IMG/VR virus record: IMGVR_UViG_3300014864_000003
Source of the DNA: a virus
DNA length: 50,546 nucleotides
Reading direction: 5' to 3' (one strand)
The notes below the pieces were generated by a model, which was not told where the DNA came from, did not search any database, and saw nothing but the letters and a program-made list of their open reading frames with translations. The position numbers were made by a program, and so were the translations under genes. Below, piece after piece: positions 174 through 50,256 of this stretch (its first letter is position 1; every line of letters starts with the position of its first letter).

Positions 174-650
174 TCAGAACGGCTGCCTAAAATAAGCGCG
201 CAGATCGACACCGCCCAACCCTCTTCCGGGTCGCAGCGATGTCCCGCCCGACACGTCAATCGGCAGATCCGGCAGATTGTATCCCCCCTGCACGCTCAAC
301 GGCTGAGAGGTCTGCCCGAACCGCTTTCCCATCGAGTACCCGCCGCCCGTCAACTGAACCGGCAGTTCGCCCCGGGTCGGAACGGCACGCAGGTTCACCG
401 GCGTGCTGGGTTGGTCACTTCCCAGGTATCCACCGCTAGGGGCAGGGAGATCGAACGGACTGGGCGGCGGAACGCCCGGGGTCACGGGAGACGGTGCGAC
501 CTCCGGCGCGATCGGCGGGCGCTGCAGGAACTGCGCTTGCTCGTCGGGCGCGATCGGTTGTTGACCGGGCGTTAAGTTCAACTGTCCTTGAGCGGCCAGC
601 CGCTGCCGGACAAAAGCCTGCATCGCGGCTTGCTCTTCCTGCGGGGTCAT
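174..650 (-). CDS. Hypothetical Pro/Gly-rich protein (158 aa), head-module position
   Basis: ATG at 650 overlaps the TGA of the upstream small ORF (ATGA coupling). It lies between the portal and scaffold-position genes on the late strand. No recognisable motif. Confidence 0.6.
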   Translation of the reverse strand: MTPQEEQAAMQAFVRQRLAAQGQLNLTPGQQPIAPDEQAQFLQRPPIAPEVAPSPVTPGVPPPSPFDLPAPSGGYLGSDQPSTPVNLRAVPTRGELPVQLTGGGYSMGKRFGQTSQPLSVQGGYNLPDLPIDVSGGTSLRPGRGLGGVDLRAYFRQPF

Positions 651-802
651 GGCTTTCTTTTCAGCTCCTCGGCCACGTCGATCTCAGCCTCGGCCTTATC
701 CCAGAAATACTGGTCCTGACCCTCCGGCCGACCAGCCTGGTCCCACATGTGATAGGCCAGCTCGCGGATGCGCTCTTCGCGCGGGGTCATGTCGCCTCGC
801 AT
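647..802 (-). CDS. Small DUF2934-like protein (51 aa)
   Basis: Below the ORF-track size cut-off, so translated by hand: MRGDMTPREERIRELAYHMWDQAGRPEGQDQYFWDKAEAEIDVAEELKRKP. There is a GGAGGG SD about 8 nt before ATG 802 and ATGA coupling to the next ORF. The IRE.AY..W...GRPEG.D..W..AE pattern matches DUF2934 as I remember it. Confidence 0.6.
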   Translation of the reverse strand: MRGDMTPREERIRELAYHMWDQAGRPEGQDQYFWDKAEAEIDVAEELKRKP

Positions 803-816
803 AGGTCAGCCCTCCG

Positions 817-28349: not shown

Positions 28350-28924
28350 TGGCCCCCAGCATCCGCACCCCGATCGGCGTTCTGAGCTTCCCCAATTTGT
28401 TCTCGCCGCGGCCTCGGGCGCCCGGCGGCGAGCCGGTTTACCAGTGCAGCATCTTGTTCGATCAGAACGCCCAGAAGGACCCGGCCTACGAAGCCCTGAA
28501 GCGGGCCGTGCGCGAGGAGATCGACGACAAGTGCGGTGCAGGCAAGAGCCGGGATGCGCAGTTCATGACGGGGGTGCGCTCGCCGTTTCGGCCGACTAGC
28601 GAGAAAGCCTATCAGGGCTATGACATGGTAAACGGGATTTTTATTTCGCCCTGGACTAAGTCGAAACCCGGTTTAGTTGACGCCGTGCGCAACGAAATCC
28701 TCGTTGTTGAAGACATCTGGGCGGGACAACTGGTCCGCGCGACGGTTTCGCCTTTTTGGTACAACACCAGCGGTAATCGCGGTGTGTCGTTCGCGCTAAA
28801 CAATGTTCAAGTTTGTCGTACTGACGGTCCTCGACTTGATGGCCGACGTTCTGCTACTCAAGACTTTGATGATTATACCGGTCCTGGCGCAATGGTATCA
28901 GCCGACGACGAAATCCCGTTCTGA
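28349..28924 (+). CDS. DUF2815-like phage ssDNA-binding protein (191 aa)
   Basis: ORF 28274-28924 trimmed to ATG 28349. IGVLSFPNLFSPR start and acidic C-terminal tail (DDEIPF). It sits next to the DUF2800-like nuclease and polA, as in known DUF2800/DUF2815/PolA modules. Confidence 0.65.
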   Translation: MAPSIRTPIGVLSFPNLFSPRPRAPGGEPVYQCSILFDQNAQKDPAYEALKRAVREEIDDKCGAGKSRDAQFMTGVRSPFRPTSEKAYQGYDMVNGIFISPWTKSKPGLVDAVRNEILVVEDIWAGQLVRATVSPFWYNTSGNRGVSFALNNVQVCRTDGPRLDGRRSATQDFDDYTGPGAMVSADDEIPF

Positions 28925-28989
28925 GGCAAGGTCAGGCTAGGTTTGGCGGGGTTATGCGAGGTATGGCCAGGTGAGGCAAGGTATGGATC
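28925..28989 (+). repeat. Pentanucleotide array 1a: 13 x GGYNN with 10-nt GGCNNGGTNN super-period
   Basis: Manual parsing. It starts on the base after the SSB-like stop codon. GG in 12/13 units; position 3 alternates C,T strictly over 12 units. Confidence 0.9.
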
Positions 28990-29054
28990 GTTTCTGGATA
29001 ATCCTTCTTTCGATCCTGTTTGTACTAACCGCAGGTTTGGAGTTCTAAGTTTGT

Positions 29055-29249
29055 GGCGGGGTTCGGTCGGGCGTGGTCCGGCAGGGTCCGGTGCGGCGCG
29101 GTTTGGTATGGCTGGGTTTGGTCAGGTCCGGCGGGGTCGGATCAGGTCAGCTCTGGTGGGGCTGGGTTCGGTTGGGTCTGCTAAGGCATGGCGGGGCAGG
29201 GCGGGGCTGGGTTAGGTCCGGTTTGGCCGGGCGCGGTACGCTAAGGTAA
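29055..29249 (+). repeat. Pentanucleotide array 1b: 39 x GGYNN, in register with array 1a
   Basis: Manual parsing. GG at positions 1-2 in 35/39 units and C/T at position 3 in 39/39. No indel. Confidence 0.9.
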
Positions 29250-29283
29250 GGAGTTTCAACTTTTCAAGGTACGGAGACACGAC

Positions 29284-29895
29284 ATGAAAAAGACCTATAT
29301 CTGCACTCTTCAAGGCACCACAGCTATCTTGATGCACCGTTTCGGCGATGCCGAGGAAATGGGGGCAAACACCCGCAAGGTTCATGTAAAGGCACAGGAC
29401 CCGCGGGAGACCGCCGAAAAGGGTGCCTACCGCAACGCCGCGGGAGAGTTGTACGTCCCGGGGACTGCTATTGCCCGGATGATCCGGGAAGGCGCCGCGG
29501 CGCACAAACAGCGTGGTTCGCGCAAATCGATGAAATACGTCATTTCGTCGGCCGTGCAGATCCCGGTTGAAGAGATTGTGATCCGGGACAGCGAAGGGGA
29601 CGCGATCACTCATTTCGAGATCGACAGCCGCCCGGTGGTGATCCCCTCGACCAAGGGACGGGTAATGCGTCATCGCGCCCGGGTAAACCCGCCCTACTGG
29701 CTTGAGTTTCCGGTGGTGATCGATGACGAGGTAGTGGACCCGGGCTTGGTCCATCAGATTTTCGGCGAGTGCGGTTTCACCCAGGGGTTGCTCGATTACC
29801 GTCCTGAGAAGGGCGGGCCGTTCGGCGTGTTCGCGGTCGTCTCGTGGGCGGCGCTGGAACAGACAGCAGCTGTGCTTGCTGAAGCTGCAGATTAA
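29284..29895 (+). CDS. Hypothetical 203-aa protein with RAMP/Cas7-like motifs, flanked by the pentamer arrays
   Basis: GGAG SD 8 nt upstream of the ATG. It is a clean ORF with ordinary, non-periodic composition. Motifs: AYRNAAGELYVPGTAIARMIREG and C-terminal EKGGPFGVFAVV. The functional call is inference only. Confidence 0.6.
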   Translation: MKKTYICTLQGTTAILMHRFGDAEEMGANTRKVHVKAQDPRETAEKGAYRNAAGELYVPGTAIARMIREGAAAHKQRGSRKSMKYVISSAVQIPVEEIVIRDSEGDAITHFEIDSRPVVIPSTKGRVMRHRARVNPPYWLEFPVVIDDEVVDPGLVHQIFGECGFTQGLLDYRPEKGGPFGVFAVVSWAALEQTAAVLAEAAD

Positions 29896-29911
29896 AGACG
29901 TTTGATTTTTA

Positions 29912-30236
29912 GGCTGGGTCCGGTACGGCGTGGCGGGGTCTGGTCGGGCGCGGTGCGGTAAGGCAAGGTCTGCTGCGGCAAGGCCGGGTCTGGTCGGGCG
30001 CGGTGGGGTTAGGTGGGGTGGGGTTTGGCTAGGTGCGGCATGGCACGGTGAGGTATGGCGAGGCCCGGTCAGGTTGGGTAGGGCTCGGTGTGGCGGGGTT
30101 TGGTCTGGTTGGGTAGGGCAAGGCTCGGTTCGGTACGGCAGGGCACGCCACGGTAAGGCGGGGTCAGGTTCGGTATGGTTCGGCTGGGTCAGGTCAGGCG
30201 TGGTAGTGCGGGGTTTGGCAGGGCAAGGTGAGGCTC
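29912..30236 (+). repeat. Pentanucleotide array 2: 65 uninterrupted GGYNN units
   Basis: Manual parsing. GG at positions 1-2 in 62/65 units and C/T at position 3 in 65/65. No indel over 325 nt. It runs into the polA GTG start. Confidence 0.92.
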
Positions 30237-32135
30237 GTTCTTGATCTTGAAACAACAAGCACTGCCGATCTTAGAAAGACCGGCAGTCATGCTTATGCAG
30301 AACATCCCGATACCAGGGTCACCGTTTTATGCTTTTCTGTTGACGACCACCCGGTTGAAACCTGGATTTCTGGTCCTCCACCGTCTTCATTTGTTGATGC
30401 AGTGAAATCCGGCGCGGTTGTTATCGCGCACAACTACCTTTTTGAGTGGAACATTTATTATAACAAACTAGTCCCGACGGGCTGGCCGATAATACCGATT
30501 AGCCAGTGGAGCTGCACGATGGCCAGAAGTCTGGTAGCTGGCTACCCGGCGTCCCTGGACCTGGTCGGCCGCGCGCTGAGGTTGTCCCAGCAGAAGGACC
30601 ACTCGTCCCGGGACCTGATGTTGCGGTTCGCTCGGCCCCGAAGCCTGGAACCCCTTGTCTGGTGGGACCAGAGTGATCCTGTGCGGTTTCAGGCTCTAAT
30701 CGACTACTGCAAAAAAGACGTGGCTACCGAGCGCGAACTCGATCGCCGGGTCCCGGAGCTATCCCCCCGCGAGCGGTTGGTGTTCGAGCTGGATCACGCG
30801 ATCAATCAACGAGGGCTGGGGGTCGATCATCACCTGGTCTACGAGCTGGCCGCTCTCGCCGACACTGCCCGAACCCGGCTGACCGGCGAGATCGTGCGGC
30901 TGACAGGTGGCCAGGTGCGCTCTCTCAACCAAGTGGCGCAGCTGAAGGCGTGGCTTGGCCGGCAGGGGGTCGAGACCGCCGATCTGCGCCGGGCGACGGT
31001 GCAGACCCTACTCGCCAACAGAGCCCTCACAGGAGCCCCCAGGACCGCGCTACAGGCACGTCTCGACGCCTCGCGGTCCTCTACCGCCAAGCTGACCGCA
31101 ATCGCGTCTGCGCGCTCCCAGGACGGCCGGGTGAGGGGTACGTTTCAGTATTACGGGGCGAGCCGGACCGGGCGGTGGGCCGGCCGCAGGTTACAGCCTC
31201 AAAATCTCTTCCGCGGCAGTATCCGAGACGTGCCCGGCGCGATCCGGACGATCCGCGCCGGTGCCGCCCCGGAGGATCTGAGCCTGCTGTTCGAGGATGG
31301 CGCGCTCGGGGTGATTGCATCTTGCCTGCGCTCGACGATCACGGCCGGACCGCGGCGCAAGCTGGCGATCGCCGACTTCAGCCAGATCGAGGCGCGCGTC
31401 CTGGCCTGGCTCGCCGGCCAGCAGGACGCACTGCAGGTTTTTCGCCGCGGCGAGGACATCTACGTCGCAACAGCGCGAGCGATTGGCTCCCCGAGCCGGT
31501 CCTTGGGCAAGGTCCTGGTTCTGGCCTGCGGCTTCGGTATGGGTCCGCTCAAGTTTCAGGCCACGGCACTGACCTATGGCGTGACCCTCGACGAGGCCGA
31601 GGCCGAGGCAGCGGTCAGGGCGTGGCGCACGGTCAACCATCACATCGTGACCCTGTGGTGGGAGAGCCACCGCGCTTGCCTGCGGGTTCTTGGCGCCGGC
31701 CCCGGCGCCCAGGAGCAGGTCGGATACGTCACCTTTATCCACCGGCCCGGGGCGCTCCTGGCGCGGCTCCCCTCCGGCCGGAGCCTCGTCTACCGGCACC
31801 CCCGGATTGAAGAGAACGAGCACGGCTACGACGAGATCACCTACATGGGGTCATTGGGCGGCAACTGGACCCGTCTGCGAGCCTGGGCCGGGCGCACGAT
31901 CGAGAACGTGACCCAGGCGGTGGCCCGTGACGTGATGGTCGAAGCGATGCTGCAGCTCCGGGACGTGCCGCTGATCGCGACGATCCACGACGAGCTGATC
32001 GCCGAAGTGCCCGCCGACGAGGCCGACCAGGTCCTCGACCGGATGCTGACGGCAATGCGGGGGACGCCTCTCTGGGCGCCGGGCCTGCCGGTCGACGCTG
32101 CCGGTTTTGTCGTAAAGAGATATACCAAGGGTTGA
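30228..32135 (+). CDS. polA: Family A DNA polymerase with 3'-5' exonuclease domain (635 aa, GTG start)
   Basis: Exo I LVLDLETTS, Exo II AHNYLFEW, Exo III YCKKDV. Pol motif A IADFSQIEARVLAWL, motif B SLGKVLVLACGFGMG, motif C ATIHDELIAEV. Confidence 0.9.
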   Translation: MRLVLDLETTSTADLRKTGSHAYAEHPDTRVTVLCFSVDDHPVETWISGPPPSSFVDAVKSGAVVIAHNYLFEWNIYYNKLVPTGWPIIPISQWSCTMARSLVAGYPASLDLVGRALRLSQQKDHSSRDLMLRFARPRSLEPLVWWDQSDPVRFQALIDYCKKDVATERELDRRVPELSPRERLVFELDHAINQRGLGVDHHLVYELAALADTARTRLTGEIVRLTGGQVRSLNQVAQLKAWLGRQGVETADLRRATVQTLLANRALTGAPRTALQARLDASRSSTAKLTAIASARSQDGRVRGTFQYYGASRTGRWAGRRLQPQNLFRGSIRDVPGAIRTIRAGAAPEDLSLLFEDGALGVIASCLRSTITAGPRRKLAIADFSQIEARVLAWLAGQQDALQVFRRGEDIYVATARAIGSPSRSLGKVLVLACGFGMGPLKFQATALTYGVTLDEAEAEAAVRAWRTVNHHIVTLWWESHRACLRVLGAGPGAQEQVGYVTFIHRPGALLARLPSGRSLVYRHPRIEENEHGYDEITYMGSLGGNWTRLRAWAGRTIENVTQAVARDVMVEAMLQLRDVPLIATIHDELIAEVPADEADQVLDRMLTAMRGTPLWAPGLPVDAAGFVVKRYTKG

Positions 32136-32995: not shown

Positions 32996-33135
32996 GGCTT
33001 ATTGTCCTGGCTTGTCCTGGCGGATTTTTTCGGTGCTGGTTTAGAAATTGCGAAACGGCGCCAGCGCCTGGTTGCCCCGGCTTATTGTCGTGCCGGTTTT
33101 TTCGGCGGTGGTTTCGGCAAATTGCGAAACGGCGC
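32996..33135. repeat. Degenerate tandem duplication of the 3' end of the giant gene
   Basis: 32996-33061 (non-coding copy) aligns with 33079-33135 (the last ~18 codons plus stop of the giant ORF). Shared blocks: ggcttattgtc...ttttttcgg..ggtttnnnaaattgcgaaacggcgc. Confidence 0.75.
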
Positions 33136-36100
33136 GACCGCCTTGTTCGCTTCGTAAACCCCGTAGGCCGCACCGGCCCCGGCAGCACCCAATTTGAGCG
33201 GGGTAGATAGTTGCGGCACGATGTACCCGATCGCCGGGATCGCCACGTCGCCGACCAACCCGGTGAACCCGCTACCCTTGTCGGCGGGTTTGGCCGCGCC
33301 GCCACTCCCGCCCAGCTTGGGCAGCGTCGGCATACCCCCGCCCAGCTTAGGCAGCGTCGGCATACCGCGGCCCCCGGCGCCAGGCGTCGGCAGGGTAGCG
33401 CCCTTGTGCCCAGCGAACTGCCGGGCTACCCAATTTGCCGCGGCGGGCGAGGTCCCGGCTTGCAACGCCGCGCCTGCCAAGATGCGGGAGACCGGCCCGA
33501 ACGTGCCCATTGCGGTCAGCCCCAAAGCCGCCGCCGGCACCCCGATCAGGTTAAAAGCGGCGCGGGCCTGGTTGAACTCGGCGGTGTTGGTCCCCGCGGC
33601 GTTGCTCCCTTTAGTCCCCAGGAGCGGGGTAAAAAGATCCTGCAGGTTTTTCGCGAACCAATTGATGCTGGCGCCGTGCATCATCGAGGCAAGGTCGCTG
33701 TCGTATTTCAGGTGGTTGAAGGTCTGCTGCAGCGGGTCGTACTTGCCGTAAAGCCCGGACCGTGACACTGCCATGCGCAAGAGGTAGGGCCAGAGATCCC
33801 CTTCCTCCGCGTGCTTTTCCAGCTGGTCCGGGGCGAACAGCAATTGCCGCACGACGCCGGTCATCAAGGCCGCGCCGACCATCGAGGCGGCGATCGCCAT
33901 AGTATTGACGACTGTGCCGGTGGTCCCGAACGTCGCCTGCACGTTGGCGCTAACCCGTCCGGCGCCACGGGCCGTGGCCTCTTCCCGGCCCCGGACGTAG
34001 GTGTGCCCAATGCGGGACAGGGCCGGGTTGAGCACGTTCTCGTGAAAACTGTAGTTGAAACTCATCAGCTGGAACGCCAGACCGATGCCGGGGACGTTGG
34101 CCAGAAGCGCCCGATCGACCTTTTTCGGGTCCTGGATGATACGGTCGGCCAGCCGCCGGACGGCCAGGCTGTAGGCGTCGCCCATCCCGACGTTGATGTT
34201 GGCCCCCATCCCGGCTTGTCCCGGTCTGTTGCTCAGCATCTCCGGGGTCGGTAGTGCCCCGTTCATGTCGACCATCCACCGAGCGAAGTCCCGGTGAATG
34301 CTGTCGGGGAGGCCCAGCTCGCGAAACCAGCGCCCGGCGTTGTCCCGGGCGTGACCGGCCGCAGTATCGGTCCCGGTATCGAGGAGGTTTTGCGACAGTT
34401 TCGACAAGAACCAGTTGCTGGTTCCGACGGTTGCCGCGCGCTGGCCGTTGGTGACTTGGGTCAGCCAGGTGGTCTTGTAGAAGTTCGTCAGCATCCGCTG
34501 CATCCGGGGGCTGTCGGAGTAATCCGCCCCCATCCGGGACAACATCGTGGTGTCGTGCATCGGCGAGGTGATGACCCCGAGGAACTCGGCCAGTGCGGTG
34601 CGGTCCTTTGCGCTGGCGGTCCCCATCAACTGACCGACCGACCGGCCCCAGGTCGCCAGACCGGCCCGAAAGTCGCCAGTCACCATCGAGGCGGCGATCG
34701 GCTCGTGCAAGCTGGCCCACATCGCGCGCTCCATCAGCACCATCGTGCCCGCGGCGAAAGCCGCGTTGTGCGGGATCTGGGTGAAGATGCTCATGCCGCC
34801 GTTGGTCTGGTTGCGTCCGGTGATGTCGGCCACCAGGTTCATGAACTTGGTCGTGTCGTGACCGTCCATGCCGTCGACCCGGGCGAGTTTCTCGGTTGCC
34901 TCCTTTAGGACCTGCCCCTCTGCCCCGAACCGCTCGGCGTAGGCGACCCGGCGGGCCACCGAGTGGAAATAGGCCGGGATCGCGACATCCGGGTCCTGCT
35001 CCATGTACTTGCGCATGATGATGTCGGCTTCCGGCGGCAGAACCCGAGCCTGTAGGTACTTGCCGGTGGGCGCCCCGGTGTCGAAATCGGCGAGCCCGCC
35101 ACCCGTCAGGTTAGCGTGCCAGCTCGCAGCGTTGGTCTCGGCGATGTAGTCCCGCAAATGCGAGTGCGCGTCGGCCGCCAGCAGCTGAGCGTCGCTCTTC
35201 AACTGGTTCAGCTCGGCCCGCTCGGCCGGCGTCGGGGCAGGGTTCTCTTCGATCTCGCCTTGCCGCAGCAGGTTCTTTTGGAGTTCCCGCATACTCGCCG
35301 GCAGGTCGATACTGCTTCCAGCTTTAGCCGCCGCGAGCTGCTTGCTCTCGCGCGGTAGCCCGGTCCACTTCTCCAAGAGTGCCTGCGGGTTCGACCCCGG
35401 AGCACCAAGCTCCTGGTCGAACATCAGCTCGTAAAGCTCGGTCGCGGACCTGGTAAAACCGGCCTTGTCGGAAGCGGCCCGGTACCGGTCGTAGTGCCGC
35501 GGGAAGTAGCCGTTGCGGGCGTAACCGGTATCGAGCCCGGCGTCGTGGCTGGTGCGCCAGGTCTGATCCAAGAGCTGGCGCACACTGCCGGCCGTCTTCA
35601 CGATGTTAGCGGGGATTGCTACGGTCCCGGCGCTAGAAAGGCTCGGGTCGACCGGCATTGTCCTCTCGCCGGTGACCAGGACGTGCCGCAACATCTGCCG
35701 CTCTTCCGTCGTCATCCGGTTGTACTCGTGAAACCCGTTGTTCTCCAGGATGTTGCCGTACTGGAAGTTCCACTTGCGGGTCTGTCGGTGGACCGCCTCC
35801 TCGAAGTTCTCCGGGGTCTGGCGCCCTTTGCCCGGCGCGGTGGCGAGGCTGTCCATGATCGGCTGCAGGATGGCTTTTGCCTCTGCCGGGGCGCGGTCGA
35901 CAATGATGTTCATCATGCCGCGGGTCGACTTGTACATCGCCCGGGCGCCGTCGGCGAACCGGGTGCTCAGCGGTCGCAGCGCTTTCGGGCGGTCCTTGTC
36001 AAACAACCCGGCCCGCTCGGCCAGGGTCCGGGTAAAGTTCTTGTAGCTGTTGATCTCGGCCTTGACCCGCTGGCCCATCGTGGTCCTGCCGCCGCCGGGC

Positions 36101-39100
36101 GCGGTGATCCGGTGGTGGTGCGGATCAGAAATGCCGAGATTGGAAAAGTCGCCGGGAGGCTTGCCGTTGGAGAGGACCTGCTCGCGGCGCAAAGCGTGGT
36201 GCAGCTCGTCGAAGGCGGCGAAGATCTCGGTCCGCTCGGCCTGTTTTGGGTAGGCCATCTGGAGCTGCCGGTCGACCATTGATATGTAGGCTTCATCCGG
36301 CATCACGATGCCGCGCGGGTCGACCCCATGCTGCTGCATTTGGCGCGCGATATAGGCTTCGTGCGCCCGGGCCAGCATCTCGTAGACGCTGGCATAGTAG
36401 TCGGCCTTGGGCGGATCAAAGGCGGCGCTCTCGCGACGGAACTCGGACGACTGGATGCGGAGCTTGGACCCTGCGCCCTCCAGGAGGACCAACTGATCCT
36501 GGGCCGCCAGCGCCCCCTTGGTCGGGTTGCCTTGGCGGTCGACTTTGGCGGCCTGGGTCTCCAGCGCCAGCCGCCGAGTGGCCAAGGCTACGTCCTCGTA
36601 GAACATCGTGTTGATGAGTTTGGCGAACGCTCCTTGCACGCTGTCGGAGGTGTCGAGCCCACTGTGCCGGGCATAGCGCGACAGGAGATTGTTCATCTGC
36701 GCCGGGTTGCCGGTGAACCGCTCGGCCAGCATGTGGTCAAGTCCGTGGGTCCACTCGTGACCGTAGCTGTTGGCGCCGCCCCTGATCGTGATCGTGCCGT
36801 TAGAGACGTAAGTGCCAAAGGGGCCGGGCTTGCTCTCGGGCTCAAGCACCAACCGAAGACGGCCGTTGAAGCTGGCGGCTTCGTGGGGCAGGCCAAGGCT
36901 CGCCATACCGTCCTGCATGGCACGGGTCATGTCGAGCATTGCCTGGACTGCCTGGTGCTGCTCGACACGACCCGTGCCGTGCCGCGGGACAGCAACCTCG
37001 ACCCCGGTGAAGCCGAACTTCGTCTGCATGTGCTGGGTCAGGATCTCGACCTGGCGCTTGACCGGGAAGTTGACCGCCAGGTCGGGATCGTGCCCGGCCT
37101 CCTCGAACACGCTCCGAAAAACGCTGGTCCCGTCGTTGAACTTGTAGTCCAGCAGGTCCCGTGCGCGGCCTACCTGGGGCGGGCCGGTGAAGGGTTGTTT
37201 TCTGCCGCCGCGCCGGTCTTCGACCTGGTCCTCGACGGTGCGGGTGCGCGCAGCCTCGCGTTCCAGGGCCGCCTCGCGCTTGGCGATCTGCTGATTGATC
37301 CGGCCCAGCCGGCGATCTTCGTCGGGGGTGCGGACCTTGTTGGTCAGCGCATCGCGGGTGGCCTGGAGTTTTGTTAAGGTTGGGTCGGCCGGCGGTGTTG
37401 GGGTTGGGGGTCTTTCTGTGGAAAGCTCGGGTCCGGTTTCGGACAGGGTTTCGCGGGGACCAGTGGTCCCGAGGTCTTCCAGTGGTCCCGGGACCACTGC
37501 CTGGTCCTCTAGTCGAGCTGGTGCCTCAGCCTGGTCGGCAATTGCCGGGCGTTCCTCGGCAATTGCCGGGCGCTCCTGCCTGGCCCGGAAGGCTGCGTTA
37601 TCGCGCTCCAGGGCCAGCCCATGTGCTTTGTTGACCTGGCGGTACTCGCGGTTCCAGTCGCGAAGCCTCTGCCGCGCAGCCTCCACCTGATCGGGCGGGG
37701 CGGTGTCAGGGTTATTCCAGAGCTTGTTGATCGGGCGGGGCTTGTTGTCCCGCAGCTCGACGAGCCGACGCCCGTACTCCGCGGCCGAGATGTCGGGGTT
37801 GAGCGTCCGGTAATCTTCCAGTGCGCGCGCGGCCGGCAGCTCTTCTGCGTAGGGTGTGCCACTGCGCCGCTGTGCGTCCGCGATGGCTCCCTCTGGGGTG
37901 GCGTCCTTGCCGACCACCTCGCCGGCTGCGTTTTTGGCGACGTACTGGCCCGGGACCGTGTGGTCCGGCTCGGTGGTGAGGCGGGTTGGCCTTTGCACTC
38001 CCCGCGACTGTTCCGGGTCGGCCGGGTCGAACGGCGTGCTGCGCCCCGACGAGGACCGACCTGTCGTTCGGATCGCCTCGGCCCAGGCTTCGGCTTCAGC
38101 GCGGGAGGTCGTAAAAACTGTCCGGCTCGGCCGGCCGTTCTGGTCGAGATGCTCGACCGCATAAGTGTTCCCTTTTGAGACGATGACCGGCTCAAACGGG
38201 TCTACCGGCGCCGCTTCGGCGGCGGGGGCCTCCGGGGCCGCGCGGACCGGCGGTTCGGCACCCACTTCTGGCCGCGCTTCGCCGGCGGGTAGGGCGGGCT
38301 GTGCAGCGGGTTGCTCGGCTCCCCGTGCTGCCGCAGTATCGCCCGGGCGCTCGCCAGGATCAGCTCCCACCCGAGGACCCCCCGGTATCTCTCCGGCTCC
38401 TGGGACCACTGGCGCAGGACCTCCCTCGCCCACAGGAGCTGGCTCTCCGGGTCGTCCGGCGGCGGCACCAGGTCGGTCAACGGGCTCACCTATTTCAGGG
38501 GGACGAGGTGATGGCTGAGAAGGTGGAGGTTCAGCGACTAGAACGGTTGCTCGTTCAGTTGGAACTGCTTCTGTCGGTCCCAGACCTGGCGTTTCCGTAC
38601 CCGCCGGAACTGCTGCTGCGGGCTCTGGACGAGCTGGAGTACCCTCCAGAGCTGGCAGAACGCGCGCAGGAGCTGCGGGCACAGTTGTCTGTGCGTATGG
38701 CTCGCCTGCAGGGGGCGCCGGTGCTGCAGTAGGCGGGAACTGCTCGGGGGCGATCTCGACGCGGCTGACCTCGCCCGGCAGCGGGAACCGCGACAGCGAC
38801 GGGGCCGGGGTGGGCGCCCCGACCTGTTCGGTGGCCGACGGCAGCCCGGTCGGAGCCGGCGCAAACTGCCCGCGGGCGGCGAGATCGACAGGTGAGGTTG
38901 CCGGCACCGGCGGCGCCGGCAACAGCCTGCGTGCTGCGGCCCCAGCGGCTTCGCCCGCGCCTTGAAACCCTGCGCCGAGTACGAACCCAGCAGGCGCGGC
39001 GAGAGCGGTACGCAGCGGATCGTAACCAGGCTGCATCTTGGTGGCGATGGACCCGACCTGTGCCAGCGGGTCGATCGCGGTATTGACGACGCCCTGGCTG

Positions 39101-39918
39101 AGCCCGCTCTCCAGCATCCGGCCGGCGACCGCTCGGCCGCCTTCCCCGACCACCTGCTCGACCGTTCTGCCGATCGCTGGGGCGGCTCGCGAAATAGCGC
39201 CGACCGTCTGCGCCACTCCGGGGACCCGGTTGATCCCGCTTTCCGGCGTAAGCACCCCGCCGGCGAGCTGGCCTCCGATCGCGGCGCCAAACTCCAGAGG
39301 ACCGCCGGACCAGGGCATCGCCTCATAGCGCGCTCTCGCCCCGGCGATCCGCAGGATCTCGGCCTGTGCCTCGGACGGGCTCGGCAGCGGTTTGAGCGCC
39401 CCGCCGGCATAACGGACAGCGGCGTTGTACTCGGCCCACTCCTGCGGGGTCATCTTCGCCGCCCGCTGCAGCTCGACCAACTGACCGCTGCCGGCCAATG
39501 TGCCGCCGTAATACGCGTCGGAGGCGTTCAGCGCGAAACGCTCTCCTAATGACACCGGGTCGGCCATTGCCGCGGCGCGCTGGCCTTCCAGATCCCGATC
39601 CCCCATCGGCACCACCGTTTGCGCCAGGGACGGGGCCACCGGGGCCACCGGGGCGACGTAACCGCCGCCCATCGGGTCGCTGGGAAACGAAAACGGCAGC
39701 GCGGCAGGCTCGGCAGCGACAGCAGGGGCAGGGGCGGGCGCTGTCACGAGCGGGGTCAGTTCAAGAAGAGGCAGATCCGGCTCGACTGGCGCTGGCCCCG
39801 GGGTCAGGGGTTTGAGATCGAGGACCGGCAGATCGTCGTCATTGTCGGGCCGCCGCGGTGGAAGAGCCGGCGCCGCCGATGACAGCGGGGTGAGTTCGAG
39901 GACTGGCAGGTCCGACAT
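33082..39918 (-). CDS. Giant virion/ejection-type protein (2,278 aa from ATG 39918)
   Basis: The ORF-track first codon is TTG; the ATG at 39918 overlaps the upstream stop (TGATG). It is the last and largest gene of the internal-protein block. It has a long Pro/Ala-rich region, one HExxH (HEWTH, nt 36745-36759), and Gly/Ala-rich hydrophobic C-terminal segments. Confidence 0.85.
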   Translation of the reverse strand: MSDLPVLELTPLSSAAPALPPRRPDNDDDLPVLDLKPLTPGPAPVEPDLPLLELTPLVTAPAPAPAVAAEPAALPFSFPSDPMGGGYVAPVAPVAPSLAQTVVPMGDRDLEGQRAAAMADPVSLGERFALNASDAYYGGTLAGSGQLVELQRAAKMTPQEWAEYNAAVRYAGGALKPLPSPSEAQAEILRIAGARARYEAMPWSGGPLEFGAAIGGQLAGGVLTPESGINRVPGVAQTVGAISRAAPAIGRTVEQVVGEGGRAVAGRMLESGLSQGVVNTAIDPLAQVGSIATKMQPGYDPLRTALAAPAGFVLGAGFQGAGEAAGAAARRLLPAPPVPATSPVDLAARGQFAPAPTGLPSATEQVGAPTPAPSLSRFPLPGEVSRVEIAPEQFPPTAAPAPPAGEPYAQTTVPAAPARVLPALEGTPARPEPAAAVPAGTETPGLGPTEAVPTERATVLVAEPPPSQPSPRPPEIGEPVDRPGAAAGRPGEPAPVGEGGPAPVVPGAGEIPGGPRVGADPGERPGDTAAARGAEQPAAQPALPAGEARPEVGAEPPVRAAPEAPAAEAAPVDPFEPVIVSKGNTYAVEHLDQNGRPSRTVFTTSRAEAEAWAEAIRTTGRSSSGRSTPFDPADPEQSRGVQRPTRLTTEPDHTVPGQYVAKNAAGEVVGKDATPEGAIADAQRRSGTPYAEELPAARALEDYRTLNPDISAAEYGRRLVELRDNKPRPINKLWNNPDTAPPDQVEAARQRLRDWNREYRQVNKAHGLALERDNAAFRARQERPAIAEERPAIADQAEAPARLEDQAVVPGPLEDLGTTGPRETLSETGPELSTERPPTPTPPADPTLTKLQATRDALTNKVRTPDEDRRLGRINQQIAKREAALEREAARTRTVEDQVEDRRGGRKQPFTGPPQVGRARDLLDYKFNDGTSVFRSVFEEAGHDPDLAVNFPVKRQVEILTQHMQTKFGFTGVEVAVPRHGTGRVEQHQAVQAMLDMTRAMQDGMASLGLPHEAASFNGRLRLVLEPESKPGPFGTYVSNGTITIRGGANSYGHEWTHGLDHMLAERFTGNPAQMNNLLSRYARHSGLDTSDSVQGAFAKLINTMFYEDVALATRRLALETQAAKVDRQGNPTKGALAAQDQLVLLEGAGSKLRIQSSEFRRESAAFDPPKADYYASVYEMLARAHEAYIARQMQQHGVDPRGIVMPDEAYISMVDRQLQMAYPKQAERTEIFAAFDELHHALRREQVLSNGKPPGDFSNLGISDPHHHRITAPGGGRTTMGQRVKAEINSYKNFTRTLAERAGLFDKDRPKALRPLSTRFADGARAMYKSTRGMMNIIVDRAPAEAKAILQPIMDSLATAPGKGRQTPENFEEAVHRQTRKWNFQYGNILENNGFHEYNRMTTEERQMLRHVLVTGERTMPVDPSLSSAGTVAIPANIVKTAGSVRQLLDQTWRTSHDAGLDTGYARNGYFPRHYDRYRAASDKAGFTRSATELYELMFDQELGAPGSNPQALLEKWTGLPRESKQLAAAKAGSSIDLPASMRELQKNLLRQGEIEENPAPTPAERAELNQLKSDAQLLAADAHSHLRDYIAETNAASWHANLTGGGLADFDTGAPTGKYLQARVLPPEADIIMRKYMEQDPDVAIPAYFHSVARRVAYAERFGAEGQVLKEATEKLARVDGMDGHDTTKFMNLVADITGRNQTNGGMSIFTQIPHNAAFAAGTMVLMERAMWASLHEPIAASMVTGDFRAGLATWGRSVGQLMGTASAKDRTALAEFLGVITSPMHDTTMLSRMGADYSDSPRMQRMLTNFYKTTWLTQVTNGQRAATVGTSNWFLSKLSQNLLDTGTDTAAGHARDNAGRWFRELGLPDSIHRDFARWMVDMNGALPTPEMLSNRPGQAGMGANINVGMGDAYSLAVRRLADRIIQDPKKVDRALLANVPGIGLAFQLMSFNYSFHENVLNPALSRIGHTYVRGREEATARGAGRVSANVQATFGTTGTVVNTMAIAASMVGAALMTGVVRQLLFAPDQLEKHAEEGDLWPYLLRMAVSRSGLYGKYDPLQQTFNHLKYDSDLASMMHGASINWFAKNLQDLFTPLLGTKGSNAAGTNTAEFNQARAAFNLIGVPAAALGLTAMGTFGPVSRILAGAALQAGTSPAAANWVARQFAGHKGATLPTPGAGGRGMPTLPKLGGGMPTLPKLGGSGGAAKPADKGSGFTGLVGDVAIPAIGYIVPQLSTPLKLGAAGAGAAYGVYEANKAVAPFRNLPKPPPKKPARQ

Positions 39919-40655
39919 CAACCGATCCTGCGGGATAGCGGGATCGGGCCGCCGATGTTCGTCTGGTATTGCGAGGCGCCCAACAGCGTCTGCGGCGGTA
40001 GCGGCGCCGGTTGGCCGGCCTTCACCACCTGGGCGAAGGCGTCGCCCAGGCTCGCCGGGGCACCAAGACCGCCGCCGAAAGGGCCGCTCTGTTGTTGCTG
40101 CAAGGCCAGCGAGGCGAGTGCCGCCTGCCGGGCCGGATCGGGGGCTGCCTCCACGGTAGACGTGGGCGTAACGAGACCCGACTTGAACTGCGGGTCACCG
40201 GTCTCGGCGTAGACCGGGGCCGCGTCGCTGCCGCCACCGAAAGCCGGGGCTGCGGCAGGACCGCCGCCGATCGGCACCCGGCCGCCCAGCGGGTCGATCA
40301 TCTCCAAATGGTTCTGCTCGTTACGCATATGCTTGAGCGGAAACCCCAGCCCGTGCTGCGGGTTCTTGTTGATCCAGTCGAGCACTACCGGGTCGGAGCC
40401 CAGATCCAGCGCCTTGCCGTGCATGTGGCGGGAGTTCTTGACCCCGGGGTTGACTTGGGCCTGGCGAGCGGCATCCCGATAGCCGGAGATGATCGCGACC
40501 CGGGCTTTGACCTCGGGCGGCATCGCCGCGACCATCACATCGAACCGGCGGGCCATCTCGGGGTCCACGCGATCGACACTCGATGCGCCGCCCGGAACCG
40601 CGTTGCCGCGCGCATAGGGCGCCAGGACCCCGCCGGGTTTTAAGGTGGCGGCCAT
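39918..40655 (-). CDS. Peptidase M15 (VanY/L-Ala-D-Glu peptidase-like) cell-wall hydrolase (245 aa)
   Basis: SGYRDAARQ...SRHMHGKALDL (H-x6-D zinc site) and a later NHLEM His. AGGAG SD 7 nt upstream. Confidence 0.75.
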   Translation of the reverse strand: MAATLKPGGVLAPYARGNAVPGGASSVDRVDPEMARRFDVMVAAMPPEVKARVAIISGYRDAARQAQVNPGVKNSRHMHGKALDLGSDPVVLDWINKNPQHGLGFPLKHMRNEQNHLEMIDPLGGRVPIGGGPAAAPAFGGGSDAAPVYAETGDPQFKSGLVTPTSTVEAAPDPARQAALASLALQQQQSGPFGGGLGAPASLGDAFAQVVKAGQPAPLPPQTLLGASQYQTNIGGPIPLSRRIG

Positions 40656-49155: not shown

Positions 49156-50256
49156 TCAGGAGGCACGCCGCATATTTGCGAGAGCCATCACCACCGCTTC
49201 CTTCATGTTGCGGGGGTCCTGGCCGGACGTGCCGGTTGCGACATGGATGCTGGACGGAGAGGGACGGGTCGGCCGTGGCGCGGGCTGACGCGCACGGAAG
49301 ACCGTTTTTGCTTCGTCATAGGCGGCTTGCACCAACGCCACCGCCTGCTGCTGGGTCTGAGGAAGCCCTCGTTCCTGCAGCAAGCCTTGGGCGAACCGAC
49401 GTACAGCACCCGACATTTGGGCGTAGTCGGGGTCCTGCCGCTGGATGCTTTGTTCCCAGGTATCGACAGCGGAGCGGATCTGGTCCACTTGGCTGTTTTG
49501 TTGGGTCTGGGCCGTCACCTGAGCGTGGTTCTGCAGCCGGGCCTCGGCTTGCGCGGCGCGGTGCCGCGTGCGCGTCAGTTCCCGGGCTGTGGCGTCGTCG
49601 ATCATCCCCTCGTCGACCTGGCCTTGCAGGTCGGGGGCGATCCGCAGCCCCAAGTTTTCCTGGGCGGCGAGCACATAAGGCATCACGCCGTCGAGGAAAC
49701 CCTGGTAGTCGCCGCGGCGCAGGGACGCGCCCACAAACATCAGCTGATTGACATCTTCCGGTGCCAGCTGGTGTTCCTGGATGTAGCCCATGAACTGCCG
49801 GTGCTGATCCAGCTCCGGCACAACCGCTTCCCATTGCTGGCGAAGCTCGTTGCGCTGCGATAGCAGCTGCTCGAAACGCCGTCGCGTCTCCGGCCGGAGC
49901 TTTTTGAGGTCAGCCTCGGTCGGGTCGGCAAACTCAGGTGGTTTTTCTGCATCCGGCGGGGGTGTCCCCTCGCCCGTAGCCGCTGCCTGGTCCTGGGAGG
50001 GGTCCGGGTCGTCGGTCTCCGCGTCATCCGAGGGGAGAGCTGACTTCTCGGGTTTGGTCTCCACGACCTTCTGGATTACGGCAAGTAACCCATCACGGTC
50101 TGACTGGCGGCTGTCGCCTGACGAAGGCGCTGTTACGTCGGGTGCGCTTGACGGGGGCGCGGTGCTGTCGGGCGCCGGCGATGGCGGCGGCGCCGGAGTG
50201 TCGGGTGCGCTTGACGGGGGCGCCGCTACGTCTGGGGTCGAGTTGTCGTCGGACAA
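49156..50256 (-). CDS. Scaffolding protein candidate (366 aa; only available start is TTG 50256)
   Basis: Position immediately upstream of the capsid gene. Pro/Ser/Asp-rich N-terminus with a 21-codon repeat, and a helical Q/E/R-rich body. The start codon is uncertain. Confidence 0.55.
   Translation of the reverse strand: MSDDNSTPDVAAPPSSAPDTPAPPPSPAPDSTAPPSSAPDVTAPSSGDSRQSDRDGLLAVIQKVVETKPEKSALPSDDAETDDPDPSQDQAAATGEGTPPPDAEKPPEFADPTEADLKKLRPETRRRFEQLLSQRNELRQQWEAVVPELDQHRQFMGYIQEHQLAPEDVNQLMFVGASLRRGDYQGFLDGVMPYVLAAQENLGLRIAPDLQGQVDEGMIDDATARELTRTRHRAAQAEARLQNHAQVTAQTQQNSQVDQIRSAVDTWEQSIQRQDPDYAQMSGAVRRFAQGLLQERGLPQTQQQAVALVQAAYDEAKTVFRARQPAPRPTRPSPSSIHVATGTSGQDPRNMKEAVVMALANMRRAS

What the first reader, a model, noticed from the sequence alone, without database searches (positions are those of the whole stretch)
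28925..30236. Two phased (GGYNN)n pentanucleotide arrays bracket a single ORF between the SSB-like gene and polA: candidate undescribed element
Between the stop of the DUF2815-like gene and the GTG start of polA, the only conventional ORF is 29284-29895. The gaps on either side are about 360 and 330 nt, in a genome where neighbouring genes usually overlap by 1-4 nt. Both gaps are built of 5-nt units with GG at positions 1-2, a pyrimidine at position 3 and free positions 4-5; I count about 117 units by hand. Three points argue for selection at the DNA or RNA level. A 5-nt register is incommensurate with codons. The units are non-identical, so this is not recent slippage. The register holds without indels over 325 nt. 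The arrays are G-rich on the sense (non-template) strand of the replication operon. All candidate roles are inference. (a) A fixed-register binding platform for an oligomeric ssDNA/RNA-binding protein, by analogy with TRAP binding 9-11 (G/U)AG triplets separated by 2-3 nt; the enclosed RAMP-like ORF and the adjacent SSB-like protein are the obvious candidates. (b) An R-loop or two-tetrad G-quadruplex-prone element serving as a transcription-primed or bipartite origin; compare G-rich pentameric immunoglobulin switch repeats that form R-loops, and the split ori/crr of P4, whose helicase family is encoded here. (c) An intercistronic translational or RNA-stability element, since the arrays contain many SD-like GGNGG. 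I know of no described phage element with this architecture.
Basis: partly seen in the sequence, partly recalled or inferred. Interest (0 to 1): 0.92.

Follow-up and report, generated by a model that had tools for sequence, protein, structure and literature searches.

The report
Phage VIPR locus: RAMP protein plus GGYNN guide arrays
The two strange 5-base repeat arrays and the gene between them are a VIPR system, a phage-encoded RNA-guided DNA-binding system related to CRISPR and first described in two 2026 preprints, so the pattern is real but already explained.

Summary
There are three in-register GGYNN arrays on the + strand: 28925-28984 (12 units), 29055-29249 (39 units) and 29912-30236 (65 units, 325 nt without an indel). 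Of these 116 units, 108 are exact GGY. Positions 4-5 are statistically uniform, and the period-5 signal occurs nowhere else in the 50.5 kb window.

The locus is a VIPR system (Viral Interference Programmable Repeat; bioRxiv 10.64898/2026.04.26.720920 and .720927).
- The enclosed 203-aa ORF is a Vipr protein. Its family profile aligns full-length with the experimentally characterised SUSP1 Vipr, and its only sequence match in the PDB is that protein.
- Its predicted structure matches Csm3/Cas7 RAMP subunits.
- The five SUSP1 residues that read G1, G2 and Y3 are conserved.
- Of 120 other viral contigs carrying such arrays, 87 encode one Vipr homologue. The arrays lie on the gene's strand in 86 of those 87, at a median distance of 34 nt.

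Relatives with 66-88% identical Vipr keep the same gene order but have almost entirely different NN content.

The arrays therefore most likely encode vrRNA guides. Vipr protomers hold each GGY, and the NN dinucleotides pair with DNA while skipping every third target base.

This copy is atypical in three ways: its arrays are very long and tail-less, no accessory vap gene is recognisable, and the polA start codon lies inside the last units of the array. I found no convincing natural target, only one weak candidate in a terS gene.

Novelty: a new member of a known kind.

The parts
28925..28984 (+). vrRNA array A: 12 GGYNN units, one of them broken (TGCGA). NN content is A/T-richer than in arrays B and C.
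   Evidence: It begins at the base after the SSB stop codon.
28985..29054 (+). Non-repeat spacer between arrays A and B. It may be a structured 3' tail for an array-A vrRNA. It also holds a 21-codon hydrophobic ORF at 28982-29047 (MDRFWIILLSILFVLTAGLEF).
   Evidence: The spacer with 5 nt of array A and 2 nt of array B (28980-29056) folds into two hairpins, z=-3.1 against shuffles. The C-terminal half of the peptide (FVLxxGLxF-stop) is conserved in L129 with two wobble-only codon changes. The two readings were not resolved.
29055..29249 (+). vrRNA array B: 39 units in one register, 35 of them GGY. Broken units are GATCA, GCTCT and GCTAA (twice).
29250..29283 (+). vipr leader, with a GGAGA Shine-Dalgarno sequence at 29273-29277, 6 nt before the ATG.
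   Evidence: The GGTAA GGAGT junction is conserved in L129.
29284..29895 (+). vipr gene: a 203-aa minimal RAMP protein (RRM core, thumb hairpin, glycine-rich loop GLLDYRPEKGGPFG).
   Evidence: hhalign against SUSP1 Vipr gives probability 97.1%, E 4.8e-11. The only PDB sequence hit is 36pp_D 'SUSP1 Vipr protein', E 1.7e-8. The AF2 model has pLDDT 86.6. The Foldseek top 50 are chains of type III, III-D and VII effector complexes; I did not check which subunit each chain is. The GGY-reading residues are conserved.
29912..30236 (+). vrRNA array C: 65 units in one register over 325 nt, 62 of them GGY. Its last two units contain the polA GTG start (30228) and the next two codons.
   Evidence: Units 1-8 share all 16 NN bases with a block in L129, while 3 of the 8 Y positions differ.

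Best explanation
The region 28925-30236 is a phage-encoded VIPR system, inserted between the SSB and polA genes of a BPP-1/Mae-Yong1326-1-like replication module.

The proposed mechanism is transferred from the SUSP1 system, not shown for this locus.
1. The three GGYNN arrays are transcribed, probably as part of the rightward replication operon.
2. The 203-aa Vipr protein polymerises on the RNA, one protomer per 5-nt repeat.
3. Each GGY is flipped out and held by the beta-sheet His, the thumb Arg and the G-loop Asp, aromatic residue and Arg.
4. The NN dinucleotides are left exposed. Together they pair with double-stranded DNA whose sequence reads NNxNNx..., with one target base skipped per repeat.
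5. Binding blocks transcription of the target, most likely a competing phage, prophage or satellite in the same host.

The arrays are therefore guide libraries, not protein-coding repeats and not a replication origin.
For: **Shown here**
1. Vipr homology. A profile of 45 ORF203 homologues aligns over 171 columns with SUSP1 Vipr (probability 97.1%, E 4.8e-11). Its sole PDB sequence match is 36pp_D 'SUSP1 Vipr protein'.
2. RAMP fold. The AF2 model has pLDDT 86.6 and pTM 0.80. All 50 best PDB matches are chains of type III, III-D and VII CRISPR effector complexes; I take them to be the Csm3/Cas7-type subunits, without checking chain identities (E down to 4e-7, TM about 0.55).
3. GGY-reading residues. 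SUSP1 H17, R138, D177, W178 and R179 map to H18, R131, D171, Y172 and R173. H18, R131, D171 and R173 are invariant or nearly invariant in the family; Y172 keeps the aromatic side chain but is not on the conserved-column lists.
4. Co-occurrence. (GGYNN)x12 finds more than 120 viral contigs. Of the 120 fetched, 87 encode exactly one Vipr-family ORF. The arrays are on its strand in 86 of 87, at a median gap of 34 nt, and lie on both sides of the gene in 31. Only 1 of these loci (L097) has a polA match and none an SSB match.
5. Guide-like evolution. Relatives with 66-88% identical Vipr keep the gene order and the arrays, but the NN content is almost entirely different. The one shared 8-unit block keeps 16/16 NN bases while 3 of 8 Y positions changed.
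6. No self-target. No match in the window rises above the 0-, 2- and 3-nt-skip controls.

**From the literature**
- Expression of vrRNAs, the Vipr-vrRNA complex, the 1-nt-skip rule, transcriptional repression and anti-phage activity (10.64898/2026.04.26.720920).
- The filament structure and base-specific contacts (10.64898/2026.04.26.720927).
Against: - Arrays B and C (39 and 65 units) are far longer than the 9-16 repeats described. They have no recognisable 3' tail, pseudoknot, staggered junction or ribozyme. How discrete guides would be defined here is unknown.
- No homologue of the recurrent vipr-neighbour families (candidate vap genes) lies next to this vipr.
- No convincing natural target was found with 11 exact-seed database scans. 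The single candidate has its skip base on codon position 1, not the wobble position.
- There is no expression or binding data for this locus.
- The sequence relation to SUSP1 Vipr is remote, 23% identity in the profile alignment.
Confidence: 0.93

Rival explanations
1. The G-rich arrays are a DNA-level or transcription-coupled element, such as an R-loop or a two-tetrad G-quadruplex. In this reading they serve as a replication origin for the SSB-polA module.
For: The arrays are G-rich on the sense strand and sit in the middle of the replication genes. The sequence fits a G2N3 pattern. There is no direct evidence.
Against: Phages with the same DUF2800-SSB-polA module but no vipr have only a small ORF at this position and no arrays (Mae-Yong1326-1, BPP-1, V45iii). 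Elsewhere the arrays follow vipr into unrelated contexts. A G-quadruplex or R-loop would not require the strict exclusion of A at position 3 or an indel-free 5-nt register. The solved Vipr pyrimidine pocket explains both.
Confidence: 0.03
2. The arrays are translated into glycine-, arginine- and tryptophan-rich pentapeptide-repeat proteins. Examples are the 104-aa ORF at 29930-30244, or the antisense proline-rich ORF at 29212-30258.
For: One + frame and one - frame are open across array C.
Against: There is no period-3 or period-15 signal; every 5-nt unit is equally constrained. Stop-making units are not depleted: 9 observed against 12 expected, and 5 against 6.75. NN usage is uniform (p=0.86). 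An open + frame arises in 6.7% of unit-order shuffles and an open - frame in 23%. The two + strand translations tested (29930-30244 and 28943-29215) have no Pfam match, and the 29930-30244 one no PHROG match. Array B has stops in all six frames. NN content is not conserved between close relatives.
Confidence: 0.02
3. The arrays act mainly as cis-regulatory RNA for the flanking genes. Vipr binding to its own leader and to the polA initiation region would set vipr and polA translation or mRNA stability, and there would be no trans target.
For: The vipr leader follows array B directly. The polA GTG and any ribosome-binding site lie inside array C. The same GGTGA ending is kept in L129, L134 and L138. 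I found no trans target.
Against: Regulation alone would not need 116 units with hypervariable NN. Most Vipr loci elsewhere are not next to polA. In SUSP1 the vrRNAs act in trans on DNA. This reading is best treated as a possible added effect, not an alternative.
Confidence: 0.1

Closest known systems
VIPR system of Escherichia phage SUSP1 (type II VIPR; bioRxiv 10.64898/2026.04.26.720920 and 10.64898/2026.04.26.720927; PDB 36pp)
   Same: - A homologous Vipr protein of about 200 aa, with a conserved G-loop and conserved GGY-contacting residues.
- GGY/NN pentanucleotide arrays on the gene's strand, both upstream and downstream of vipr.
- Encoded by a phage.
- NN content is hypervariable.
   Different: - SUSP1 has discrete vrRNAs of about 100 nt, each with 12-16 repeats and a conserved hairpin/pseudoknot tail (seen in L124). 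It also has a vap gene.
- This locus has uninterrupted 39- and 65-unit arrays with no tail and no vap.
- It sits inside a replication operon, with the polA start codon inside an array.
- The proteins share only about 23% identity in the profile alignment.
Cas7-family backbone subunits of Class 1 CRISPR effectors (Csm3 and Cmr4 of type III)
   Same: The same RAMP fold (RRM, G-loop, thumb). Both polymerise along a guide RNA, and the thumb flips out bases periodically (the mechanism comes from the literature).
   Different: - CRISPR backbones have 6-nt periodicity with one flipped base and contiguous 5-nt pairing. VIPR has 5-nt periodicity with three guide bases sequestered and only two pairing.
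- This locus has no CRISPR repeats or spacers and no Cas5, Cas6, Cas10 or Cas1 gene.
'Staggered' vrRNA arrays described for other VIPR types (fig. S18 of 10.64898/2026.04.26.720920)
   Same: Guides are packed back to back with no tails between them. Many IMG/VR loci show blocks of 12-13 units that overlap by 1 nt, and the close relative L129 has one such junction (GGCTG|GCGA).
   Different: The window's arrays B and C have no 1-nt-overlap junction. The register never shifts, so this mechanism of delimiting guides does not visibly apply here.
TRAP binding to 9-11 (G/U)AG triplets separated by 2-3 nt
   Same: One protein subunit reads one trinucleotide, with a 2-nt spacer, giving an RNA platform with a period of about 5 nt.
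   Different: The fold is unrelated. TRAP is a closed ring rather than an open helical filament. TRAP's spacers carry no information, whereas here the spacers are the guide.

Membership tests
VIPR system | Vipr protein homologous to the characterised SUSP1 Vipr | tested here: met
   hhalign of alignment A1 against SUSP1 agp039 gives probability 97.1%, E 4.8e-11 over 171 columns. The profile search of PDB sequences returns a single hit, 36pp_D 'SUSP1 Vipr protein', E 1.7e-8. tblastn of ORF203 alone against GenBank phages finds nothing, so the relation is visible only at profile level.
VIPR system | Minimal RAMP fold: a single RRM core, a glycine-rich loop and a thumb | tested here: met
   AF2 model with pLDDT 86.6. 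The Foldseek PDB top 50 are all chains of type III, III-D and VII effector complexes, presumably the Csm3/Cas7-type RAMP subunits. The invariant positions in this G-loop stretch (Q167-F183) are G168, D171, R173, P174, G178 and G181 (F183 nearly invariant). The conserved basic hairpin spans residues 112-134.
VIPR system | Residues that read G1, G2 and Y3 of the repeat (SUSP1 H17, R138, D177, W178, R179) | tested here: met
   These map to H18, R131, D171, Y172 and R173. H18 is nearly invariant, and R131, D171 and R173 are invariant across 45 homologues. W to Y keeps the aromatic side chain.
VIPR system | Tandem GGY/NN (YNNGG) pentanucleotide repeats next to vipr on the same strand | tested here: met
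   for the window. In 87 Vipr-positive IMG/VR loci the arrays are on the vipr strand in 86, at a median gap of 34 nt.
VIPR system | GGY conserved while NN is hypervariable between related systems | tested here: met
   L129, L134, L136 and L138 (Vipr 66-88% identical) keep the arrays but share only one 8-unit NN block with the window. In that block NN is 16/16 identical while 3 Y positions differ.
VIPR system | vrRNA made of 9-16 repeats followed by a conserved structured 3' tail (type II definition) | tested here: inconclusive
   Array A (12 units) is followed by a 70-nt spacer that folds better than shuffles (z=-3.1). The fold is not clearly conserved in L129 (z=-0.9). Arrays B (39 units) and C (65 units) have no tail, ribozyme (Rfam) or staggered junction. 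Only 5 of 353 in-phase blocks in other loci reach 60 units. The preprint states that array architecture varies between its seven types.
VIPR system | Accessory vap gene adjacent to vipr | tested here: not met
   The only other ORF between SSB and polA is a 21-codon peptide. None of the recurrent vipr-neighbour families found in 87 loci has a homologue beside this vipr. The preprint lists six vap families for seven types, so vap is typical rather than obligatory.
VIPR system | Natural targets in competing mobile elements that match by the 1-nt-skip rule, with no self-targets | tested here: inconclusive
   There are no self-targets above the skip-0/2/3 controls. Eleven exact-seed scans of viral, genome and metagenome collections gave only background-level hits. 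One exception: array B units 5-17 match 23/26 NN positions in a terS gene of 65%-GC phages (L166 and L167; L168 has the 9-unit seed but a weaker extension). About 0.3-0.75 chance hits are expected per 9-unit seed.
VIPR system | vrRNAs are expressed and co-purify with Vipr, and the complex binds dsDNA and represses transcription | not testable with these tools
   This needs small-RNA sequencing, pull-down and reporter assays.
CRISPR-Cas (Class 1) | CRISPR repeat-spacer array plus Cas5, Cas6, a large subunit or adaptation genes | tested here: not met
   TRF finds no CRISPR-like direct-repeat array in the window; its longest periods are 30 nt, at 33307-33373 and 50115-50232. Rfam finds nothing in 28500-30600. 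The immediate neighbours are SNF2 helicase, DUF2800 nuclease, SSB and polA.

The most novel reading that the evidence does not exclude
This clade may be a VIPR variant that does not use discrete, capped guides. It combines a vap-less vipr embedded between SSB and polA with uninterrupted tail-less arrays of 39-65 repeats.

In this reading, Vipr would coat the intercistronic RNA as very long filaments, or as filaments of variable register, carrying many concatenated guides. The vipr leader follows array B directly, and the polA ribosome-binding site and GTG start lie inside array C. The same coating could therefore throttle translation of vipr and of the phage DNA polymerase, coupling inter-phage interference to replication timing.
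Probability: 0.15. Interest if true: 0.55.

Novelty: new member of a known kind. Interest (0 to 1): 0.35.

Why it matters
VIPR is a very recently described mode of RNA-guided DNA recognition. Its guide is non-contiguous: two of every five RNA bases pair, and one target base in three is skipped. It has been proposed as the ancestor of the CRISPR RAMP proteins.

This window adds an uncharacterised environmental member. It comes from a 63% GC phage, seen unchanged in four metagenomic or sequencing samples, and related by its polA to Microcystis phage Mae-Yong1326-1, Variovorax phage V45iii and Bordetella phage BPP-1. Its arrays lie at the extreme of known array lengths.

The locus poses a practical question that the published type II model does not answer. 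How are guides delimited and capped when there is no tail, no ribozyme and no staggered junction?

The result also shows that the feature can be recognised from raw sequence alone. In the IMG/VR sample tested, a simple (GGYNN)x12 pattern recovered a Vipr-encoding locus in 87 of 120 cases.

Tried and rejected
1. **Target search with the 1-nt-skip rule.**
   - Local scans of the window and about 1.2 Mb of fetched loci gave nothing above the 0-, 2- and 3-nt-skip controls.
   - Exact-seed scans of viral contigs:
     - C1-10 and C49-58 (10 units each): 0 hits.
     - A1-9: one 37%-GC sequence with no extension.
     - C1-8: 5 sequences with no extension.
     - C27-35: 0 hits.
     - C39-47: 1 hit with no extension.
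     - B9-17: the terS candidate.
   - Genome contigs: B27-36 gave 0 hits. C1-9 gave 16 hits scattered across phyla, with extension at the chance level.
   - Metagenome contigs: C49-58 gave 1 hit in a 39%-GC contig, with no extension and not aligned to the wobble position.
Exact seeds are much less sensitive than the >=80% NN-match nhmmer search used in the preprint.
2. **Guides of the relatives against the terS contigs.** The best scores were 13-14, against a control maximum of 13.5, so there is no support.
3. **Broken GCYNN units as regular guide delimiters.** Their spacing is irregular here and in other long arrays. Rejected.
4. **Translated-repeat hypothesis.** Rejected.
5. **Rfam, including hammerhead ribozymes.** Nothing found.
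6. **Promoter and terminator scan.** Nothing above shuffles near the arrays.
7. **tblastn of ORF203 against GenBank phages.** No hit; profile methods were needed.
8. **Assigning the locus to one of the seven published VIPR types.** Not possible, because the figures and supplementary data are not held.
9. **Cluster look-up for UniProt accessions of the five founding Vipr hits.** No accession was given.
Full report
**1. The observation**

The sequence between the SSB stop (28924) and the polA start (30228) contains three arrays of 5-nt units on the + strand.
- Array A, 28925-28984: 12 units.
- Array B, 29055-29249: 39 units.
- Array C, 29912-30236: 65 units in one register over 325 nt.

Of the 116 units, 108 are exactly GGY. 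Position 3 is never A or G in intact units. Positions 4-5 use the 16 dinucleotides uniformly (chi-square p=0.86).

Period-5 power of G is high only at 29026-29275 and 29901-30275 in the whole 50.5-kb window. A 7-unit GGYNN pattern matches 55 times, against 0 in 100 dinucleotide-preserving shuffles.

The only correction is that the upstream gap holds two arrays separated by a 70-nt non-repeat spacer.

**2. The repeats are not coding**

- Array C has no period-3 or period-15 power; each 5-nt unit is equally constrained.
- Units that create stop codons are not depleted: 9 observed against 12 expected, and 5 against 6.75.
- Array B has stops in all six frames.
- The open frames across array C (the 104-aa ORF at 29930-30244 and the antisense 348-aa ORF) arise in 6.7% and 23% of unit-order shuffles.
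- The two + strand translations tested (29930-30244 and 28943-29215) have no Pfam match, and the first has no PHROG match.

**3. The arrays travel with the enclosed gene, not with the replication genes**

- tblastn with the 203-aa ORF found a homologue beside the arrays in 29 of them. Only one locus (L097) had a polA match and none an SSB match.
- An HMM built from 45 homologues and iterated on the ORFs of those loci raised this to 87 of 120, with one hit per locus.
- The arrays are on the strand of that gene in 86 of 87, at a median distance of 34 nt. They lie on both sides of the gene in 31 loci, downstream only in 44 and upstream only in 11.
- Conversely, phages that share the DUF2800-SSB-polA module but lack the gene have only a small ORF at this position and no arrays (Microcystis phage Mae-Yong1326-1, Bordetella phage BPP-1, Variovorax phage V45iii).

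The unit is therefore a self-contained module: the gene plus its flanking arrays.

**4. What the module is**

A full-text search for 'GGYNN' and 'pentanucleotide repeat' returned a 2026 bioRxiv preprint (10.64898/2026.04.26.720920). [quoted passage not shown]
- A small RAMP protein, Vipr.
- vrRNAs made of 9-16 YNNGG repeats followed by a 3' tail.
- The GGY bases are held by the protein, and the NN dinucleotides pair with dsDNA while skipping one target base per repeat.
- The result is transcriptional repression of competing phages, satellites and prophages.

A companion cryo-EM preprint (10.64898/2026.04.26.720927) adds structural detail.
- One protomer binds per repeat, in a right-handed filament.
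- G1 is read by H17 and D177.
- G2 is read by R138 (thumb) and W178.
- The pyrimidine pocket includes R179.

**5. Membership tests**

I located the SUSP1 locus in NC_028808. Its vipr is agp039, flanked by arrays of 12-16 units with hairpin tails.
- The ORF203 family profile aligns with SUSP1 Vipr over 171 columns at probability 97.1%, E 4.8e-11.
- The profile's only match among all PDB sequences is 36pp_D, 'SUSP1 Vipr protein', E 1.7e-8.
- An AlphaFold2 model (pLDDT 86.6, pTM 0.80) matches chains of type III, III-D and VII effector complexes in all 50 top PDB hits, presumably the Csm3/Cas7-type RAMP subunits; I did not check chain identities (E down to 4e-7).
- The five GGY-reading residues map to H18, R131, D171, Y172 and R173. 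H18, R131, D171 and R173 are invariant or nearly invariant in the family.
- The same phage occurs unchanged in four samples.
- Relatives with 66-88% identical Vipr (L129, L134, L136, L138) keep the order DUF2800-SSB-array-vipr-array-polA, but their NN content is almost entirely different.
- The single shared block is 8 units long (window C1-8 against L129 from 3158). It keeps 16/16 NN bases while three Y positions and one G changed. This is the pattern expected if NN carries the information and Y need only be a pyrimidine.
- No self-target above the control skip rules exists in the window.

**6. Where this copy departs from the described type II system**

- In-phase blocks in the 87 Vipr-positive loci have a median of 13 units (IQR 11-15), as published. 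Only 5 of 353 reach 60 units. Arrays B and C, with 39 and 65 units, are therefore at the extreme.
- Arrays B and C have no tail, no staggered 1-nt-overlap junction and no ribozyme. Their broken units, mostly GCYNN, are irregularly spaced. How guides are delimited is open.
- Only array A resembles a canonical vrRNA: 12 units followed by a spacer that folds into two hairpins (z=-3.1). The fold is not clearly conserved in L129. The spacer also encodes a small hydrophobic peptide whose C-terminal half is conserved there.
- No accessory vap gene is recognisable. The preprint lists six vap families for seven types, so this does not exclude membership.
- The polA GTG start and its first codons lie inside the last two units of array C. 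The vipr leader follows array B directly. The GGTGA ending is kept in L129, L134 and L138, but not in L136.
- No promoter or terminator signal stands out, so co-transcription with the replication operon is the simplest assumption. This is an inference.

**7. Target search**

I converted guide segments to NNx patterns and used all available scans. Only exact seeds of 8-10 units were possible.
- Ten of the eleven scans gave nothing, or hits that did not extend beyond the seed and sat in contigs of unrelated composition.
- One seed stands out. Array B units 9-17 matched three 65%-GC viral contigs.
- In L166 and L167 the match extends to units 5-17 (23/26 NN). It stops exactly at the first broken unit.
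- It lies in a conserved stretch (GNATRLKANESV) of a terminase small-subunit gene (PF03592). The 27-nt site is identical in two variants whose proteins are 72% identical over 120 aligned residues.
- Chance seeds occur at roughly 0.3-0.75 per scan. The skip base falls on codon position 1, not the wobble position. Guides from the relatives do not converge on these contigs.
- I rate this as a candidate only.

**8. Verdict**

The origin and translated-repeat ideas are not supported. The claim that no such element has been described is superseded by the 2026 VIPR preprints.

The locus is a new, environmentally sampled member of a known kind. It has atypically long, tail-less arrays and no vap gene.

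Noticed in passing
window 28982-29047 (+); L129 about 2060-2167: A small hydrophobic ORF (MDRFWIILLSILFVLTAGLEF) lies in the spacer between arrays A and B. Its C-terminal half, FVLxxGLxF-stop, is conserved in the 88%-identity relative L129 with two wobble-only codon changes. The same spacer, with a few array bases on each side (28980-29056), folds as two hairpins (z=-3.1). It is unclear whether this is a peptide gene, a vrRNA tail, or both.
   Followed up: partly
window 29912-29951 versus L129 3158-3197: This is the only guide block shared between two related phages: 8 units with 16/16 NN bases identical, while 3 of 8 Y positions switched between C and T and one GGC became GCT. After unit 8 the two arrays diverge completely.
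   Followed up: yes
L166 5984-6009, L167 406-431, L168 3264-3289: A candidate natural target of array B units 5-17 (23/26 NN in L166 and L167). It lies in the terminase small-subunit gene (PF03592), just upstream of terL, in unrelated 65%-GC phages. The 27-nt site is identical in two variants whose proteins are 72% identical over 120 aligned residues. The skip base falls on codon position 1, not the wobble position.
   Followed up: partly
window 29937-29956 and 29987-30006; L129 2001-2060 and 3123-3152; L138 array from 3610: The arrays contain internal duplications in multiples of 5 nt.
- Window C units 6-9 and 16-19 (CT CG GC Gx).
- A 30-nt exact duplication and a 15-nt duplication in L129.
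- GGCAG repeated five times in L138.

These suggest slippage or duplication as the raw material for new guides.
   Followed up: no
window 30228 (polA start); L125-L128, L134, L138: Public gene calls start polA 97-131 codons too late (538 or 504 aa instead of 635). The real GTG start lies inside the repeat array. The N-terminal MRLVLDLE exonuclease motif is conserved in L129 with synonymous changes.
   Followed up: partly
L009, L039, L045, L062, L065, L066, L123 and others (33 of 120 loci): These loci carry degenerate GGYNN arrays (up to 58 GGY units in one in-phase block in L066) but have no detectable Vipr ORF in the fetched stretch. They may hold divergent Vipr types or vipr genes cut off by contig ends. 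A few are plain simple repeats with 1-2 distinct units (L067, L072, L076, L077, L098, L102, L121).
   Followed up: no
L084 73-367 (-) versus arrays 468-957 (+): This is the one locus of 87 where the Vipr HMM hit is on the opposite strand to the arrays. The hit is a partial ORF at a contig end.
   Followed up: no
L053 8959-9444 and 18 other loci: A protein family of about 160 aa sits directly downstream of vipr in 19 of 87 loci. It has a weak GemA-like Pfam hit only, E 0.006. Two further families of about 190 aa occur in 6-7 loci each. These are probably vap genes. None is present beside the window's vipr.
   Followed up: partly
window 50115-50232 and 33307-33373: Tandem repeats with a 30-nt period: 3.8 copies at 68% match, and 2.2 copies at 91% match. 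They are unrelated to the GGYNN arrays. The second lies inside the 2279-aa minus-strand ORF at 33082-39921.
   Followed up: no
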